Counted from the first letter of the stretch, positions 5,090 to 63,977 are shown. The stretch is DNA of 64,000 nucleotides from Pseudogymnoascus verrucosus (GCA_001662655.1 KV460258.1); one strand, 5' to 3'. Numbers and translations are program-made. Notes: generated from the letters alone by a model not told the origin.

Positions 5090-7480
5090 TTCACTCTTTC
5101 ATTACTCATGTCATTACACACTTCATTTCGCATCTCATTTCGCATCATGTCTCATTACGTCTCATCGCTCTTCCTAAAGGTTGCTCCTATCATCATTACG
5201 CTTCTACCATTGCGCTTCTATAATTGCGCTTCTATCATACGCTTCTATCACCCCTTCTATCTTACGCTTCTATCATTCCTTGTATCATACGCTTCTGTTA
5301 TTGCTCGTCTCATTACTCCTTATATCATCCTATGTCTCATTCATAGCTTCGATCGCTTGCATCGTGTTGCACGAGGCTTCGATTCGATAGCCTCGATCGA
5401 TTGCATCGTGTTGCAAGAGGCTTCGATTCGATAGCCTCCATAGCTTGCTTCATGGTGCAAGAGGCCCATATCACTGCCCATATCATTGCACACATACATG
5501 TCATAACATAACGCTATAGAAGCCTATGGTATTGCATTATTGCGCATTTTCGTTTAGAAGCTATCGAATATGCGCTGGAAACCAAAACACCGCGAAGCCC
5601 CGCGGGAAGTATTCTTTGCGCATATTCATTAAGAAATAATCGAATTTGCGCTGAAGTTGAAAGCACTGCGAAGTCCCGCGGAAATCATTTTGCGCATATT
5701 CGTTAAGAAACAGTTGAATTTGCGCAAATTTCCGTTCATCTGCAAGAGGCATCGATAGCTTCGATGGCTTCGATAGCAAGAGGCTTCTGTAATGGAAGGC
5801 TTCTATGATGCAAGAAGCTTCTGTATCGTAAGAGGTTGTACGTAAGACGTCTTCTACTACGAGACGCTTCCGTGCGGTACGATGTTCCGTGCCGCAAGCG
5901 GCTTCGATAGCAGGAGGTTTCGATGGCCTCCCCCTTGTTATAAGAGGGATGCGTTCCATAAGTCGGTTCGTTCCCTGCCGCATAAGGCTTCCGGTTGCAA
6001 AACTTGTATGCCTTCTACCGCAAGAGGCTTCGGCTCCATAAGAAGCTTCGTGTCATGAGGCCGTGTCGCAAGGGGCTTTAATAGCTTCGATAGCTTGCTC
6101 CGTGCCATAAAAAGGCTCGCAAAGGGCTGCAAAGGGCTTCCGTGCTGCAAGAGGCTTTGATGGCAGGCGGCCTCATGTCATTAGAGGCTTGCTTTGATAG
6201 CTTTGTAATGCCTGCAAAGCTTTCATGATACCTGCGAAGCCTTCGTTGTGCATACGAATCTCGATCATGCCGAAGCTTTGCAAAGCTTTTTGGCGCAAAT
6301 TTAGTAAGAAGGGTCTAGATTTGCGGAAACATCTAGCATCTTAATTAACATGATCAAGGTCGTCATGGTCGATCCTAATGGCGTCAATGATCCTAATGGC
6401 GTCTATGACGCGGTCAAACCTGCTACTATGCCACGGCCAAGATCGGCATGGGCGATTGAGCCTGCTAATATGATAACATGGTTTAAGGTTTGCACGGTCG
6501 AATTTACTGTTACTACATAATTAAGCCAGCGCTATCGGATCTGTTAGTATGACAAGGTTAAGGTCGGCACAATCGAAGCTACTATCATGACATAGTTAAA
6601 GGTTGGTTGAAGTTAAAAGCTAGTATGACAGGGTCGAAGAAGCAGGATCGAGGGGATCGATTTATAGATCTTTTGCCCATACTCAACTTCACATGGTTGA
6701 ATTTGCGTAGAGGCTAAACGAGTGGACCAAAGAGCCAAACGAGAGAATCGAAGAAGCCAAACGAGAGAATCGAAGAAGCCAAACGAGAGGACCGACTCAT
6801 AGATTTATTGCGCATTCTCATCTAGATGGGTCTAAATATGCGCAAAACGCCAAATCCCGCGAGATCTCGCGAGATCACTATAATTTACTCATATCTGAGT
6901 AGAATGGGCTGGATTTACGCAAAAGAATAAATCCTATGGAAGCCTCTATAGAAGTCAGAGGGTTCAAATAGAAGAAGTCAGGGTGAGCTCTTATGGAAGC
7001 ATGCAATGGCGATGGCATTGTTACGTTGATCGTTAGGTTGATATTACATCCTTAAGCCGCATCCGTTTCCTTCGTGCCTTCCTTTCCTTCGTGCCTTCCT
7101 TTCCTTCGTGCCTTCCTTTCATTTCGTTAAGCTGCCTTTATTTGATGTCATTAAGCAAGCCTACTTTGTTTCGTGATTTAGCGCAAATTAACCTAAATTT
7201 AGACAGATGTGCGCTATATTCTAAAATCGACACCGTCGATTTAGGCAAGTTTTACGAAGTTTGTGCGCATATTCATGTATAATAAGTTAGATTTGCGCAA
7301 AAGGCTGCTAAAGTCGCATTTGTCAAGTCGCTCTTGTTAATTCGCTTTCGTCAATTCGCATTTATCAAGTCGATTTGGTGTCTCTGCGCATATCCATTTA
7401 AATGGAGCTGAGTCTGCGCAAAAACTAAACTACACCAGTTTATGAGCCTATAAGTTTACGAAGCCACCGCTTTTCTGGTG
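5090..7480. repeat. Mosaic of degenerate minisatellites carrying 10 copies of a 34-bp imperfect palindrome
   Basis: 44-bp tandem at ~5344-5465, ~75-bp tandem at 5542-5725, CAAGAGGCTTC units at 5740-6190, ~40-bp units at 6420-6640, 22-bp at 6733-6789, 17-bp at ~7067-7120; no credible ORF. Confidence 0.85.
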
Positions 7481-14240: not shown

Positions 14241-15148
14241 ATGGCCACCAAAGCGCCCCTCCGTTCCCTCCAGGCGATTGCCGCACGCCCTTCCCTCTGC
14301 AGCGCCTCCGCCCCTCTCTCCTCCCTCGCCGCCCGTGTCGCCCCAGCACAAGCACAGAAGCTGTTCTCCACGAGCGTCGCGCGCGCGGAGGAGCTGAGCG
14401 AGAGGCCGCGATGGTCGTATACGCCTGAGAAGATGAAGGCGCCGTTCCAGCCGCGTGTGAAGAACCCGCAGATGGCGTTTTCGGTCAATGAGGACCCGGC
14501 GCTGTTGGATGCTGTGTATACTAAGTTTTTGGGGGTGGGTGGGGAGAATGCGCTCACGGATGAGGTCAAGTGGCTTGCGGTTACGCATAAGAGCTTTGAT
14601 CAGGGGAGGAGAGGGTTTAATGATAAGCTGGCTTTCTTGGGTACGTGATGTCACGCGTAATGGCTGGTGATGGCGGCGGGCTTGATTGGGGAACTGGGGC
14701 TAACGGGATTATAGGGAAACGGATCCTTGTGCTTCAGGGAACGACGGTGCTGCTTACGTCCCAGGCACCACCTCCTGCTTCGACAGATGCTTATAACCGC
14801 GAACCCTTCAACCACCCATCCCTCGAGGGCCTTGCCAAGGTCCAGGCAGTCGACCTTGGGGATGTGTTGTCCAAGCAGAGAGTTGGACAACTCGCGCGCT
14901 CATATGGCATCGACCAGGTCACAAGGTGGAAGCCGAGAAACGTATGTCCCTCATTATAACCTCCCTATGACCTTGAACAAATCCAATCTAACTCCCGATA
15001 GCCGCTGAGACTAGGAGCATCTGGTGTCGATGTCGTTCTGACGACTTCCGTGTACGCTATAATTGGAGCACTGGCATTACAGAAGGGCGGCGAATACGCC
15101 GGCCAGGTCGCGAGAGAGAAGGTCCTGAAGCCTTTGGGACTGTTATAG
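14241..15148 (+). CDS. MRPL15: Mitochondrial ribosomal protein mL57 (RNase III-like)
   Basis: Exons 14241-14640, 14715-14941, 15002-15148 in frame (257 aa); presequence, LAVTHKSFDQGRRGFNDKLAFLGKR, YAIIGALALQKGG. Confidence 0.9.
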
Positions 15149-50278: not shown

Positions 50279-51690
50279 ATGCGCACTCGATCGCAAGCCA
50301 AGAGAGAGGCCAAAACAGCCCCTGTGACACTCACCAGCCTCCCAAATGAGACTCTGGAACTGATCTTTAGCACGTTTTTAATACACCAGTCAATAGCACC
50401 TGATGCGTACTTTCGTGGAACGTAGGAGAAAAGCGACGAGCGGTCCTGGCACTCGATACAATGCCATGTGCTGTTCTCGCTATCCCTTGTTTCTAAGCGA
50501 TTTTGCGATATTGCGCAGCCCATCCTCTACAACGAGTTCGTCCCGGATATGGCGACTCTTGGAAGTCAACCCTGTACTCATGAGATGCCCGACTCACTTC
50601 TTTCCTGCAAACCGTAGCACGACGCCCAGACCTTGCCGCGTTAGTAAAAAGGATCTATATTCACTCGAACCTACTGAAATCCGTTGACGACAAGGAGAAT
50701 AAGAATGAGGCTCACCAAGCTGCACTTGCATTAGGGATCAAAAAGTGGCCGAGTGGCGAGCTGGTTACAATTTCACTCACCAAACTGCCAAACTGCTTAA
50801 CTGCCTAACTGCCTGACCTAAAACACTTCAGCCTCCAAACGGTGACGAACCCCGTTGGGTACCTCAGCTCCTCATACCTACGGGCTTTAGGTACTTCTGT
50901 TCTGCCTCTTACGACTATAGACATCAACACGTATGCCACATCAAACGCGCCTGTTTCTATGTCCCTATTCAACTTGTATAGCTGTGCGGGCGCCATCCTT
51001 GATCAAACTACCAACCTAGAGAAACTCAACCTCCACATGTGCGGTGGCATTCAGCACGGAGCCCCTATCCCGACCTTTCCAAAACTCAAGACCGTACGTA
51101 TCACACACAACAGACTCAATGAGAAGGACCTTGAAGGACTCCTTTCTTCTTGCACTGGTCTACGCACCTTCGTCTTCGAGGCTACATACCCTTACGTAAG
51201 TCGACTCGACTGTGTCCAAGGCTTCGGTCCTAGAGACCACTTTAGTCTGGATAATGCCGTTAAATATCACAGTCGGCACCGTGCAACACTCATGTTGCTG
51301 CATCTTGATCTCCGGGCGAGGGGGGTTGGTTACTTTGTAAGCGAAGTCAACGCCCGTCCGCCCTTCTTCCACCTCAAAGGCTTCAAGGCGCTGGAGCACC
51401 AGTTCTTCAACTCTCATGGGATATACGGAGCAAGCCATTCGTTAAAGACAAAGGGGAATAACAGTGAGAGACAAGGCCCAGAACGCCTTTCTCACATGAA
51501 TGTATCGTTCTGAAGGAAGCACAAGACTCCCGAGACGAGAATTCTTATCAGTTTGGTTCCGCTCGGGAGCGGCCTGAATAGCTACACCGAGATATGCGGC
51601 ATCAGCTCCTCCCAGGATATCCTTCACGAATGTCCTGTGCGTCTTCCTCCTGGCCATGAGGCTGAACTGCAGGAAAGCCTAATCTGAGAC
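50279..51690 (+). pseudogene. F-box/LRR-like pseudogene
   Basis: LTSLPNETLELIF F-box start; TAG at 50423-50425; frameshift near 50542; further TGA and TAA stops; LRR-like LEKLNL/LKTVRI/LRTFVF segments. Confidence 0.8.
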
Positions 51691-60921: not shown

Positions 60922-61539
60922 TTCTTCTCTTCGATTTTAGATCGATTATGGCTTTGATTTTGGATACGTAGAATTTTGCCATGTTCGTTCTATTTAAGGC
61001 GGTAGTTGACGATAGATGAGAGATGATTATTTATAATGTATATATGGTAGCATCCATAATAAAATATTTGCACGGCGGGATGGAATATTCCAGTGCTGCA
61101 GAGGGTCAATAGTCAACATCAAAGATTGAAATGCCGGTAGTTTTCCCAAATTTTCATTCAAGAATAATAGCAATGGGTGGCGCGCGTTGGGTGATTGTTT
61201 CAGCCATTTTCCACTTCTAGAAATCTTGAAAGTGCTTAGGGGAAAGGAGATCCTTGTTCGAGATTGCTAAACATGTCTCCTTGTGATGTAATTCACGGAT
61301 TGTTCCAAGCCAGCCTCAAATGTTTGTGAATATACCCTTTCAAGGGAGCACCACAAATATAAATTGCTCATCTCCTCTCTGACCCTCTCTAGTTTGCAGT
61401 TTGTCTTTACAACACCACGCATAAAGAGAGCGGGACTGGGCGTATTTGCGCGTGCACCGCCTAACCTAAGCGCGGCCAATGGAGGCCTTAGCTACCACCA
61501 CACAAAGGCAGGTATATATATATATTAGATCAAGCGAAG

Positions 61540-61745
61540 AAGAATCACGTCCGGCTCCATGGCTGAGTGGTAGCAACTCTCAGTTGTGGGCTTGATAATA
61601 TGAAACTGCCTCGGATCGTGGTGATAGACGCCCGGCTAACCCCCGGGACCCTATCACGACGATGCGTGGGGTTTGGTTACTGGTCATGTACTCCTACGGT
61701 TAGCTCCTGTAGAGAGTAGACGATCTGGTTCTTTTGTCTTTTTTT
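61540..61745 (+). ncRNA. Candidate Pol III-transcribed structured RNA of unknown family
   Basis: TATA at 61513-61524, A-box TGGCTGAGTGG at 61560-61570, three hairpins closed by a 5'/3' stem, T4/T7 terminator at 61732-61745, B-box GGTTCGAATCA at 61807-61817. Confidence 0.65.
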
Positions 61746-61970
61746 GCTCTAGACTTGTTTTTTCTTCCTCTTTTAGAGTGGTGGGCTCTGTAGTCATATA
61801 TTTTGGGGTTCGAATCAGTGGCTTTGTTGTTATAACAGGCGAAAGCTCTAGCGAATTCATTTTGGGGCGCGCTTGCTAATTGTTTGAATTGTAAATATCG
61901 TCTATTATGCATGTAACAAAGTACCAAAGAATTAAAAACATTACTATGTCCAATATATGCCCCTGGGGTT

Positions 61971-63977
61971 CTAGAACCCAGTCGGATGGATGCTATGTCC
62001 AGTTTGTTGAGCACTCTCTGGCGCTCCTTGCATCTGTCCATATACCATCCCCATTATATCACCACCCTCTTGCTGCATTGTTTCCATAAAGCCTTCCATC
62101 TCATCCAAACTTGAGTATAGGCGGTTCAACACGTCCAAAAACCTCCTGGCTTTGTCGGAATGTGTATTTACAGTCTCCAGGATTCGTTTCGCTGCCTCAA
62201 TATCGGCTCCCCATGCCGCCGCATCTGGTGAGGTTGGCTCGGTTGTGATACAGAAAACCGGGATCAAGCTTGACTGGAAGAGGTAATATCTGGCGCGGGT
62301 TAGTGTCCGATATATAATCAAAGAACTGGCAAACTTACATCGCATACCAGTCATGCATTGGACTGAAGATGTGGAGGGAAAAGTATTCTTCGGTGTACTT
62401 CACGGTGAGGTGTGCATATTCAAGACAGAGCTCACGGCATCGTCTTGCAGCTTCCGTGTCCGCCTGCGGCGACAAGACGCCAACGGATTTCTCAGTCGCC
62501 CATCTGAGTAGTAGGGGTGTATGCAACATTATCCTGAAGCATGCTAACCTCCAAAGGAGGCGACAACGGGCCGTCGTTATGTATTCTGGCTCGGTGGGAT
62601 CGGTATGGCCATATTTGAAGTATGCTGGAAGGGTTTTTTCCCAGACGGTGATCTTTGAATCCATTTCGAGGATTTCTTCGGCAGGCAAATCAAAGCTAGC
62701 CATACGGCGAGTGTACATTGAATTGGTGAGTTGGTGAAATTGAATCTGCCAGATTAGATGAGAATAAATGGTTGACCCAGTGGACTCTTCAGGGGCGACA
62801 AGTGTTGTCGAGGTTAACTTTTCGTCGTCAACATTCATTGGCTCCTTTATATCCATCATACCATCGGTTGGCCATAATATTGGGCGCCCAAACGTTATGG
62901 CCGTCCCAGCATCCATGACGAAAACGCACCATCCAACTCGTCGTCGCATCTCACGATCAAAAACGCTTATATTCCACGCCGGAAATTCTCGATGCAGCCC
63001 AAGGCTTATGGCTATTCGAACGGCCAGCCCAGAGAAGTTCCAGCCGGTGTTTGGGTTGTTCTGTCTTTGCGTGAAATGGCCCTTCAGTGCAACAGCTTGG
63101 ACCAACGTTAGACTCCCAGATGACAGAATGGATGTGTTTCTGCTCCATCCCTGGGTTTTTGCACCCAGTAGCTCATCGAATCCCTTGGTGTCATATCCCA
63201 TACACCACCCGCCAATAGCGAGGATTACATGCCGCAACAGCAACCATGACTCTGGGTCCGGTTTTGGAGCGAGATCCTCGGTCTGAGCTCTAAAAGTAGC
63301 CTCGTGAACTATAGGGTATCTCGTGTGGAAATTCCGAAAATAGGAATCGATCAGCGTGCTAATAAGCTGGTCCAGGTCTGCGTCATGTGTCATCTCGCTC
63401 CAGGCCCAAGCTTCCCGGAGTGAGGGTTTGACGGTCCTGGACGAGTCAATAACCCTCGATACGGAGGAATCGATGGTCCACCCATTATGGTGAAGGGATC
63501 GTAGCAAAGCCACATTTGCAGATGTTCCAAGATAACCGGCTCCTTCTGGATTCACGGACAAGAATGCCATACCATCCGCTAGCTGGTTTAGGGCATCCCC
63601 CTGTTCACTCCATTCAAATCCTGTTGATATCCGGGGAAATGAATCAGTATAACTTGGATGGGATGGAGCATCCGAAGTAGTAGAAGCCCATGGGTTAGTG
63701 GGAAGTTCCCAGGTGCTAGACCCGGGAATTCCTGGCGTCTGTGGAGCCAATTTCTCAATATCAACGCCAGGTATTAACTCTGCACATTTCGCTTCTAGCT
63801 TCTGCAACCGGTTTTCAAGCGAAGTAACATATCTGCGGCACCTGTTACAAAAGACGTCCGTTGAAATAGGAAAAACACTTACTCGCGAGTCAGCGGGCTT
63901 CTCTGGATCTTCGCCGAATAGACACAGGGCCTACGCTCTCTCCGACAATAGGCACATGATGGCCTTTCTTTAGAGCA
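61971..63977 (-). CDS. Gal4/Lac9-like Zn(II)2Cys6 transcription factor (5' end lies beyond the window)
   Basis: CSKERPSCAYCRRERRPCVYSAKIQRSPLTREYVTSLENRLQKLE after splicing; AVRIAISLGLHRE, EMRRRVGWC, FGRP; intron ~62290-62338. Confidence 0.88.

What the first reader, a model, noticed from the sequence alone, without database searches (positions are those of the whole stretch)
61540..61745. Unrecognised ~200-nt structured RNA with a putative kissing loop
Seen: a terminal stem AAGAATCA-CGTC (61540-61551) / GACG-atc-TGGTTCTT (61719-61733) encloses three hairpins. Hairpin A is CCATGGCTGAG 61557-61567 / CTCAGTTGTGG 61579-61589. Long hairpin B spans 61603-61674 (ATCGT/ACGAT, GTGATAG/CTATCAC, CCCGG/CCGGG, loop CTAACCC). 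Hairpin C spans 61689-61718 (loop TTAGCTC). The B and C apices are complementary (GCTAACC 61635-61641 / GGTTAGC 61698-61704), and loop A GGTAGC (61569-61574) can pair with linker GTTACT (61676-61681). Many G-U pairs favour the + strand as the RNA. It lacks hallmarks I know for tRNA, 5S, U1/U2/U4/U5/U6, SRP, RNase P/MRP or C/D snoRNA. Inference: a compact, possibly doubly pseudoknotted ncRNA or a milRNA-type precursor lying between two convergent genes.
Basis: partly seen in the sequence, partly recalled or inferred. Interest (0 to 1): 0.82.

Follow-up and report, generated by a model that had tools for sequence, protein, structure and literature searches.

The report
New fungal Pol III RNA gene
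Between two fungal protein genes lies what looks like a small, tightly folded RNA gene read by RNA polymerase III; it matches no catalogued RNA family, is conserved in related fungi, and has not yet been shown to be expressed.

Summary
The + strand folds to -88.8 kcal/mol, z = -6.06; the - strand gives z = -2.69.

- (TA)7 TATA element at 61513-61526
- perfect A box TGGCTGAGTGG at 61560-61570, about +21
- T7 terminator at 61739-61745
- the only GGTTCGAA (B-box core) in the 64-kb window at 61807-61814, on the same strand, about 60 nt past the terminator

Rfam 15 gives no relevant match even at E<=10, and ARAGORN finds no tRNA. Each of two relatives' assemblies lays a single contig on the stretch, so it is not a repeat. 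In two more diverged relatives, seen only through a spurious antisense ORF, the RNA's 3' third and the B box stay conserved while the spacers between them diverge.

Expression, conservation of the 5' two-thirds, covariation and the proposed loop-loop contact remain untested.

Verdict: probable gene for an unclassified ~200-nt Pol III ncRNA. Its function is unknown. The 'kissing loop' is a real complementarity (p about 0.006) but looks sterically awkward within one molecule.

The parts
61513..61526 (+). TATA-like (TA)7 element about 15-30 nt upstream of the inferred start
   Evidence: Read. The relatives X6 and X7 both have 4 letters fewer here (table 4). The role as TFIIIB site is inferred by analogy with SNR6 (passages of PMC5855946).
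61536..61551 (+). 5' strand of the terminal stem; inferred transcription start region (about 61536-61547)
   Evidence: Pairs with 61726-61738 in the MFE. The start is inferred from TATA and A-box spacing and was not measured. G61542>T in X7 breaks one G-C pair.
61560..61570 (+). A box TGGCTGAGTGG, a perfect match to TRGCNNAGTGG (consensus recalled)
   Evidence: 2 matches in the 64-kb window, both strands, against 0.88 expected. This one lies about +14 to +25 from the inferred start.
61553..61596 (+). Hairpin A (core 61557-61589, extended in the MFE); its 5' strand carries the A box
   Evidence: No substitution in X6 or X7.
61600..61677 (+). Long hairpin B, about 31 pairs, with apical loop CUAACCC 61636-61642
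   Evidence: Changes in relatives: T61611>A turns a U.U mismatch (61611/61667) into A-U in X6, X7 and X11; C61657>T turns G-C into G-U in X6; A61648>C lies in an internal loop.
61682..61725 (+). Hairpin C (core 61689-61718), with apical loop UUAGCUC 61700-61706. GGUUAGC 61698-61704 is complementary to GCUAACC 61635-61641 of hairpin B.
   Evidence: The antisense translation is conserved in P0001 (22 of 23 residues over 61748-61680) and in P0002 (14 of 14 over 61744-61703).
61719..61738 (+). 3' strand of the terminal stem, running into the U-rich tail
Evidence: The same change explains V>I in P0001.
61739..61745 (+). T7 run, the inferred Pol III terminator. It is preceded by T4 at 61732-61735 and followed by a second T6 run at 61758-61763.
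   Evidence: Read. No run of 4 or more T lies between 61540 and 61731.
61807..61817 (+). Extragenic B box GGTTCGAATCA, matching 8 of the 9 specified positions of GGTTCGANNCC (consensus recalled), about 60 nt past the terminator
   Evidence: the only GGTTCGAA in the window on either strand (2.1 expected). It is retained in P0001 (GSNPK in the window's frame) and in P0002 (GFEP, the same DNA read in another frame), inside otherwise diverged spacers.

Best explanation
This is a single-copy gene for a ~200-nt, highly structured non-coding RNA of an uncatalogued family, transcribed by RNA polymerase III from an SNR6 (yeast U6)-type split promoter.

Inferred mechanism of expression: TFIIIC binds the intragenic A box (61560-61570) and the extragenic B box (61807-61817) about 250 bp apart. 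It places TFIIIB on the (TA)7 element. Pol III starts near 61536-61547 and stops in the T7 run at 61739-61745.

Shown by folding only: the purine-rich 5' end pairs with the U/C-rich 3' end. This closes a junction that carries hairpins A, B and C.

Inferred: the oligo-U tail and terminal stem would make a stable La-type RNP, as in other small Pol III RNAs. The RNA acts as a whole folded particle, not as a source of small RNAs. Its exposed loops are the working surfaces. B carries GCUAACC. A, the B/C linker and C carry GGUAGC, GGUUAC and GGUUAGC. The B/C complementarity more likely joins two molecules or marks a conformational switch than forms a kiss within one molecule. The cellular function is unknown.
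For: Structure:
- z = -6.06 on the + strand against -2.69 on the - strand; 12 G-U pairs.
- Ranks first of 642 grid window-strands.

Pol III signals in the right order and spacing on one strand:
- TATA, a perfect A box (2 in the window, 0.88 expected), T7 plus a back-up T6.
- The window's only GGTTCGAA lies 247 bp after the A box. My estimate of a chance hit in that 300-nt span is about 0.005.
- The architecture matches SNR6 as described in PMC5855946 (passages). Those passages also say fungal U6 genes variably use TATA, A and downstream B blocks.

Not a known family: 0 Rfam matches at gathering score in 64 kb. The only 2 matches at E<=10 in 61300-62000 are irrelevant, on the - strand and outside the RNA. 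ARAGORN finds nothing at default thresholds, with or without introns allowed.

Single copy: 1 contig laid at >=80% likeness in each of X6 and X7. No second copy in the window.

Conservation:
- In X7 there are 17 substitutions in 61300-61499 against 4 in 61540-61745 (Fisher p = 0.003).
- Of the 5 substitutions seen in the RNA, 1 breaks a pair, 1 makes a pair, 1 is G-C to G-U, and 2 are unpaired in the MFE.
- In more diverged relatives, the antisense-ORF proteins keep 22 of 23 (P0001) and 14 of 14 (P0002) residues over the RNA's 3' third.
- The spacers keep 5 of 17 and 3 of 18 residues (P0001), and 0 of 17 and 2 of 18 (P0002).
- The B box survives in three species in two reading frames, so the constraint is on DNA and not on a protein.
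Against: No transcript was seen, and the start and end are inferred.

Conservation beyond >95%-identical relatives is shown only for 61680-61748 and the B box, and only through amino-acid translations that hide wobble positions. The 5' two-thirds (hairpins A and B) could not be checked: ORF searches found nothing.

There is no compensatory change anywhere. G61542>T in X7 breaks a terminal-stem pair. In X7 the region downstream of the RNA (61746-62000, 5 substitutions) is as conserved as the RNA itself, and X6 shows no contrast at all (3 upstream, 3 in the RNA).

The internal B-like loop GGTTAGCTCC is a poor B box. A missing Rfam hit does not prove novelty: a strongly reduced or diverged known RNA could be missed. 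No fungal genome collection was available.
Confidence: 0.7

Rival explanations
1. It is a Pol III-driven precursor of small (milRNA-type) RNAs. An A-box module would drive transcription, and hairpin B (about 75 nt) and/or hairpin C would be cut out by Dicer or another nuclease, as in Pol III-dependent milRNAs of Neurospora or the tRNA-like/hairpin units of a murine gammaherpesvirus.
For: Hairpin B has pre-miRNA-like size and imperfect pairing. The Pol III signals are as above. Pol III-dependent milRNA transcription in a filamentous fungus is in print (PMC3547838; title and abstract seen in the listing).
Against: A closing 5'/3' stem, a four-way junction and mutually complementary apices are not needed for a Dicer substrate. 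They point instead to a particle that works as a whole. No small-RNA data could be examined.
Confidence: 0.12
2. It is a strongly reduced or diverged member of a known RNA family that covariance models miss. The closest candidate is an RNase P/MRP-like RNA, which shares the order terminal stem, 5' hairpin, A-rich strand, central helix, 3' hairpin. Another candidate is an SRP Alu-like RNA.
For: The order of helices resembles domain 1 of RNase MRP (recalled). GAAACUGCC at 61602-61610 pairs with GGGGUUU at 61668-61674 with a one-letter bulge, which is faintly like the P4 strand GAAAGUCC (recalled).
Against: No RNase P, MRP, SRP, U6, Y, vault or 7SK match even at E<=10. The CR-I and CR-V motifs as I recall them are absent from the sequence. 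The RNA is about half the size of fungal P/MRP RNAs (recalled). The GAAAC-containing helix is an ordinary hairpin base, not a pseudoknot.
Confidence: 0.06
3. It is a relic of a mobile element: either a tRNA-derived SINE, or a MITE with imperfect terminal inverted repeats next to a TA repeat. Its fold and Pol III boxes would then be leftovers without function.
For: The A box is tRNA-like. The 5' and 3' ends form an imperfect inverted repeat that extends into the flanks in a 431-nt fold. A TA repeat adjoins the 5' end.
Against: One contig per relative assembly at >=80% likeness and no other copy in 64 kb. There are three separate hairpins, not one long palindrome. The 3' third and the B box are conserved in relatives whose spacers have diverged.
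Confidence: 0.04
4. It is not an independent gene. It would be a structured stretch of a Pol II transcript (a long 3' UTR of the Metallophos gene, or antisense to the 3' UTR of the transcription-factor gene), or a DNA-level TFIIIC-bound boundary element whose transcript does not matter.
For: It lies between convergent genes. The flank 61884-61970 next to the factor gene is also conserved: 26 of 29 residues in P0001.
Against: It lies 620 nt past the stop of the + strand gene. The strand asymmetry of the fold, and the TATA, A box, terminator and B box all placed around the folded unit, are hard to explain otherwise.
Confidence: 0.08

Closest known systems
S. cerevisiae SNR6 (U6 snRNA gene) promoter architecture
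   Same: Upstream TATA, intragenic A block near +21, T-run terminator, and a B block downstream of the terminator with unusually wide A-B spacing: about 200 bp in SNR6 (PMC5855946, passages) and 247 bp here.
   Different: The product is not U6. There is no ACAGAGA box and no Rfam U6 hit, and it is about 200 nt against about 112 nt. The B box lies about 60 nt past the terminator here; my figure of about 120 nt for SNR6 is recalled.
Small structured Pol III RNAs closed by a 5'/3' terminal stem (Y RNAs, vault RNAs, viral EBER and VA RNAs)
   Same: Pol III gene, A box, oligo-U tail, ends paired into a stem that encloses several hairpins, about 100-200 nt (the comparison is recalled; the fold is).
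   Different: No sequence or structure match to any of them. Whether partner proteins such as Ro or the major vault protein exist in this fungus was not tested. The B box is extragenic.
Pol III-dependent milRNA loci of Neurospora crassa (PMC3547838) and tRNA-like/pre-miRNA units of murine gammaherpesvirus 68
   Same: A Pol III promoter module followed by pre-miRNA-sized hairpins.
   Different: Here the whole unit is closed by a terminal stem and the apices are mutually complementary. There is no evidence of small RNAs.
   Same: Two 7-nt apical loops with 7 complementary letters (8 pairs, -11.6 kcal/mol by duplexfold).
   Different: Nothing shows that the contact forms. Only 4 pairs lie inside both loops. 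The two hairpins differ about twofold in length, which favours contact between molecules (inference).
RNase MRP/RNase P RNA, domain 1
   Same: The order of elements: terminal stem, 5' hairpin, A-rich strand, long-range helix, 3' hairpin (recalled topology).
   Different: No CR-I or CR-V, no pseudoknotted P4, no specificity domain, and no Rfam hit.

Membership tests
Pol III gene with SNR6-type split promoter | TATA element about 30 bp upstream of the start | tested here: met
   (TA)7 at 61513-61526, 14-27 nt before the first base of the terminal stem. The start itself was not mapped.
Pol III gene with SNR6-type split promoter | Intragenic A block matching TRGCNNAGTGG about 20 nt after the start | tested here: met
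   TGGCTGAGTGG at 61560-61570.
Pol III gene with SNR6-type split promoter | Terminator run of T at the 3' end and none inside | tested here: met
   T7 at 61739-61745 and a back-up T6 at 61758-61763. No run of 4 or more T in 61540-61731.
Pol III gene with SNR6-type split promoter | B block downstream of the terminator | tested here: met
   GGTTCGAATCA at 61807-61817, the sole GGTTCGAA in 64 kb. It is conserved in P0001 and P0002.
Pol III gene with SNR6-type split promoter | Transcription by Pol III, dependent on TFIIIC | not testable with these tools
   No RNA run was listed. It needs ChIP, promoter mutants or inhibitor tests.
U6 snRNA | ACAGAGA box, AGC triad context, match to the U6 covariance model | tested here: not met
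   No ACAGAGA in 61536-61745. No U6 or U6atac match at E<=10.
tRNA or tRNA with intron | Cloverleaf with acceptor, D, anticodon and T arms | tested here: not met
   ARAGORN finds none, and none with introns allowed at default thresholds. Lowered thresholds gave 109 calls in the window, evidently noise. No Rfam tRNA hit.
SRP RNA, RNase P RNA, RNase MRP RNA, Y RNA, vault RNA, 7SK, Afu_* families of Rfam | Match to the family covariance model | tested here: not met
   0 matches at gathering score in the window. None of these families matched at E<=10 in 61300-62000.
C/D or H/ACA snoRNA | C (RUGAUGA) and D (CUGA) boxes at the ends, or H (ANANNA) and ACA boxes after the hairpins | tested here: not met
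   By reading (motifs recalled): no RUGAUGA near the 5' end, no CUGA near the 3' end, and no ACA 3 nt before the end.
SINE or MITE | Many dispersed copies | tested here: not met
   1 contig laid per assembly in X6 and X7 at >=80% likeness. No other copy in the window. The window's own whole genome could not be searched.
milRNA precursor | Discrete small RNAs of about 19-25 nt from a hairpin arm, dependent on Dicer or another nuclease | not testable with these tools
   A hairpin of suitable size is present. No small-RNA data.
Telomerase RNA (Pol III type, as in ciliates and plants) | Single-stranded template of more than one telomeric repeat next to a boundary helix and a pseudoknot | tested here: not met
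   Loop B CUAACCC equals 7 letters of a TTAGGG-type C strand. It is only 7 nt, closed by a G-C stem. The motif occurs 15 times in the window. The organism's telomere repeat is unknown.

The most novel reading that the evidence does not exclude
The RNA founds a new family of fungal Pol III RNAs whose function rests on one loop and three matching sites. Apical loop B shows GCUAACC, which resembles the intron branch-site motif of filamentous fungi as I recall it. Loop A (GGUAGC) would pair with it while bulging an A, as in a U2/branch-site helix. The linker (GGUUAC) and loop C (GGUUAGC) are also complementary to it.
Probability: 0.06. Interest if true: 0.85.

Novelty: new variant of a known kind. 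Interest (0 to 1): 0.55.

Why it matters
The list of Pol III products in fungi is short and thought to be nearly closed: tRNAs, 5S, U6, SRP RNA, RNase P RNA and a few oddities in yeast. A conserved, single-copy, 200-nt Pol III RNA with a U6-type split promoter in a filamentous fungus would add a new member with unknown partners.

It would also show that the extragenic B-box arrangement is used beyond U6. In practice such a promoter/terminator unit is of interest for guide-RNA expression in fungi.

If the RNA proves unexpressed, the locus is still a clean example of conserved TFIIIC-type boxes between convergent genes.

Tried and rejected
- **Whole genome of the window:** not held.
- **Earlier notes of this scan:** nothing by sequence or place.
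- **Sequencing runs:** no RNA holder listed, so this is not evidence either way.
- **Laying 4 runs:** X11 covered only 61592-61778 and X16 only 61725-61991, both as short low-depth contigs. Nothing is concluded from the uncovered parts. All four were contigs, so no starts, ends, strand or level could be read.
- **Metagenome scan** with TGGCNNAGTGG...GCTAACC...GGTTAGC: 6 loci. On inspection all were unrelated bacterial-type sequences, about the number expected by chance.
- **Genome-contig scan** with the hairpin-A pattern: 1 locus in a cyanobacterial MAG, unrelated.
- **Literature:**
  - No paper holds any of six 17-19-letter strings from the RNA.
  - Searches for fungal Pol III ncRNAs gave nothing specific.
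  - I read section 16 of the A. fumigatus small-RNA survey PMC2377427. It lists 15 unclassified RNAs, but I could not link any to this locus. Gene-id searches for the neighbours of Afu-262 and Afu-336 (listing only) did not help. Its supplements were not opened.
- **Spurious ORFs as probes:**
  - 61703-62041 (-) worked.
  - 61567-61716 (+) and 61640-61876 (+) found nothing.
  - The profile search added only an 801-aa protein matching positions 17-43, outside the RNA; it was not followed.
- **ARAGORN at lowered thresholds:** noise.
- **Spliceosomal intron inside the RNA:** considered, because fungal U6 genes can have introns. Rejected by reading. No GTRNGT-like 5' site fits, and the first AG after GCTAAC is 64 nt away.
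- **Telomerase-template idea for loop B:** rejected (see membership test).
- **Branch-site idea:** not supported statistically. GCTAACC occurs 6 times against 5.8 expected. CTAACCC occurs 15 times against 6.2.

Full report
**1. The observation.**
Folding 61535-61745 as RNA gives -88.8 kcal/mol on the + strand. Shuffles average -63.9 (sd 4.1), so z = -6.06, and 0 of 200 shuffles fold as well. The - strand gives -62.7 kcal/mol, z = -2.69.

The MFE pair list has 68 pairs, 12 of them G-U, which fits the + strand as the RNA. The two versions are alternatives that I cannot tell apart.

On a 200-nt grid over the window, 642 window-strands, this stretch has the lowest GC-corrected energy. Its register was chosen and the others were not. 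Two other high-ranking grid windows had z = -3.34 and -3.79. The core fold persists when 431 nt are folded.

**2. The loop complementarities.**
GCUAACC (61635-61641) and GGUUAGC (61698-61704) are exact complements. RNAduplex gives 8 pairs, -11.6 kcal/mol. In 100,000 random apex sets of the RNA's own composition, a run of 7 or more Watson-Crick pairs between any two of the three apices arose in 0.6%.

Only CUAA/UUAG lies inside both 7-nt loops. The other three pairs require closing pairs to open. Hairpin B is about 31 pairs long and C about 16. Two tips that far from a common junction cannot meet unless B bends sharply. I therefore rate a contact between molecules, or a switch, above an intramolecular kiss (inference).

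Loop A (GGUAGC) can pair with the linker GUUACU: 6 pairs, 2 of them G-U. It can also pair with GCUAACC if one A is bulged (read). I did not test the significance of either.

GCTAACC itself is not enriched in the window, 6 against 5.8 expected. CTAACCC is enriched, 15 against 6.2.

**3.
These elements lie on the + strand, in order:
- (TA)7 at 61513-61526.
- The start of the terminal stem at about 61536-61540.
- TGGCTGAGTGG at 61560-61570, a perfect match to the tRNA-type A box TRGCNNAGTGG (consensus recalled). There are 2 matches in the window against 0.88 expected. The other, at 50746, has no gene-like context.
- No run of 4 or more T until T4 at 61732-61735.
- T7 at 61739-61745 and T6 at 61758-61763.
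- GGTTCGAATCA at 61807-61817.

GGTTCGAA, the core of the B box (consensus GGTTCGANNCC, recalled), occurs once in the whole 64 kb on both strands, here (2.1 expected). My estimate of the chance that it falls within 300 nt downstream of the A box on the same strand is about 0.005.

This layout is that of yeast SNR6: upstream TATA, internal A block, and a B block beyond the terminator with A-B spacing of about 200 bp. Passages of the review PMC5855946 describe it. They also say that fungal U6 genes variably use these elements and can carry introns.

The product here is not U6. There is no ACAGAGA and no U6 model match. I did not test that claim.

**4. Known families.**
- Rfam 15 gives no match at gathering score anywhere in the window.
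- With permissive filters on 61300-62000 there are two matches at E<=10 (a flavivirus 3' UTR repeat and mir-5885). Both are on the - strand at 61402-61514, outside the RNA, and far below their thresholds.
- ARAGORN finds no tRNA or tmRNA, and none with introns allowed at default thresholds. Loosened thresholds give noise.
- By reading, there are no C/D or H/ACA boxes, no Sm site of the AU5G type, and no RNase P/MRP CR-I or CR-V as I recall them.
- The order of helices resembles MRP domain 1, and GAAACUGCC/GGGGUUU faintly recalls P4. But that helix is a plain hairpin base. I rate this low.

**5. Copy number and relatives.**
No genome is held for the window. The run index lists 20 runs from 14 studies holding part of 61450-61850, none on record as RNA.

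I laid X6, X7, X11 and X16 on 61300-62000 at >=80% likeness. All are contigs, all >95% identical. X6 and X7 cover the whole stretch with one contig each, X11 covers 61592-61778 and X16 covers 61725-61991. One contig per assembly argues against a repeat family, as does the absence of other copies in the window.

Substitutions inside 61540-61745:
- 61542 G>T (X7) breaks G61542-C61731.
- 61611 T>A (X6, X7, X11) turns the U.U mismatch 61611/61667 into A-U.
- 61648 A>C (X6, X7, X11) lies in an internal loop.
- 61657 C>T (X6) turns G-C into G-U.

That is compatible with a maintained fold but has little power. In X7 the upstream 200 nt carry 17 substitutions against 4 in the RNA (Fisher p = 0.003). 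The downstream 255 nt carry only 5, and X6 shows no contrast (3 and 3).

**6. More distant relatives through a spurious ORF.**
No DNA collection of fungi was on hand. I therefore searched the antisense ORF 61703-62041 (113 aa) against the protein collection. It has no Pfam-like meaning and overlaps the RNA's 3' end and the B box. Two proteins came back: P0001 (122 aa) and P0002 (98 aa). A profile search of 1.84 billion representatives added nothing relevant.

tblastn against the window shows the following for P0001:
- It follows frame -3 and then, after an indel, frame -2.
- Over 61748-61680, 22 of 23 residues are identical. The single V>I equals C61721>T.

P0002 is about 36% identical overall, yet its last 14 residues (61744-61703) are identical.

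Identity by segment:

| Segment | P0001 | P0002 |
|---|---|---|
| Terminator-to-B-box spacer | 5 of 17 | 0 of 17 |
| Next spacer | 3 of 18 | 2 of 18 |

The B-box neighbourhood keeps 8 of 11 residues in P0001 (ATGSNPKIY against ATDSNPKIY). P0002 reads GFEP there. That is the translation of GGATTCGAACC, the reverse complement of GGTTCGAATCC, in a third frame.

The same DNA words are conserved in different reading frames, with diverged and length-variable spacers between them. This points to constraint on the DNA or RNA and not on a protein. It picks out the two elements the Pol III model predicts.

Limits: amino-acid identity hides wobble positions. Only 61680-61748 and the B box are covered. 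There are only 2 relatives. Probes for the 5' two-thirds found nothing.

**7. Searches that gave no homologues.**
A three-anchor pattern scan of metagenome contigs gave 6 loci, all unrelated on inspection. A hairpin-A pattern scan of prokaryotic genome contigs gave 1 unrelated locus. No paper in the library holds any of six strings from the RNA. Keyword searches and section 16 of PMC2377427 did not identify it. That paper's supplements were not read and may hold sequences that bear on this.

**8. Explanation and odds.**
- **Best reading (0.70):** a single-copy Pol III gene for an unclassified ~200-nt structured RNA with an SNR6-type promoter.
  - Shown: fold statistics, signal order, lack of a family match, single copy, and conservation islands.
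  - Inferred: start and end, TFIIIC/TFIIIB use, La binding of the U tail, action as a whole particle, and the role of the loops.
- **Rivals:**
  - milRNA precursor, 0.12
  - part of a Pol II transcript or a DNA-level TFIIIC element, 0.08
  - diverged known family, 0.06
  - mobile-element relic, 0.04

**9. Novelty and score.**
The kind is known: a small Pol III RNA with a U6-type split promoter. The RNA itself has no family, so I rate it a new variant of a known kind.

Interest is 0.55. A new conserved Pol III RNA in filamentous fungi would surprise specialists moderately and is directly testable. Expression, deep conservation and function are all still open.

Noticed in passing
window 61700-62041 (- strand): A 113-aa ORF antisense to the RNA's 3' end, the terminator and the B box has been called as a protein in public collections (P0001, P0002). 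The pattern of frame changes shows that it is not a real protein.
   Followed up: yes
window 61884-61970: The flank just past the stop of the Fungal_trans factor gene (probably its 3' UTR) is strongly conserved in P0001's organism: 26 of 29 residues in a non-coding frame. The adjoining spacer keeps 3 of 18. This may be a conserved 3' UTR element.
   Followed up: no
window 5801-6000 (+) and 14801-15000 (-): These two 200-nt grid windows fold unusually well, z = -3.79 and -3.34. Their context was not examined and they have no Rfam match.
   Followed up: no
window 61460-61498: Upstream of the TATA element lie CCTAACCTAAG and TTAGCTACCAC. The latter contains the reverse complement of GTGGTAGC in loop A. 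This stretch varies in relatives: substitutions at 61483-61488 in X7 and deletions at 61487-61494 in X6. It is probably not part of the RNA.
   Followed up: partly
window 50746-50756 (+): This is the second A-box match in the window (TGGCCGAGTGG). It has no hairpin, T-run or B box nearby and looks like chance.
   Followed up: partly
whole window: CTAACCC occurs 15 times against 6.2 expected, with 0 of 100 shuffles reaching 15. It may reflect intron branch sites of this fungus. This was not checked against gene models.
   Followed up: no
P0003 (801 aa): The profile of the spurious ORF weakly matched four stretches of an 801-aa protein at profile positions 17-43 (E = 3e-6). This is the part that overlaps the transcription-factor gene's end. 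It was not examined.
   Followed up: no
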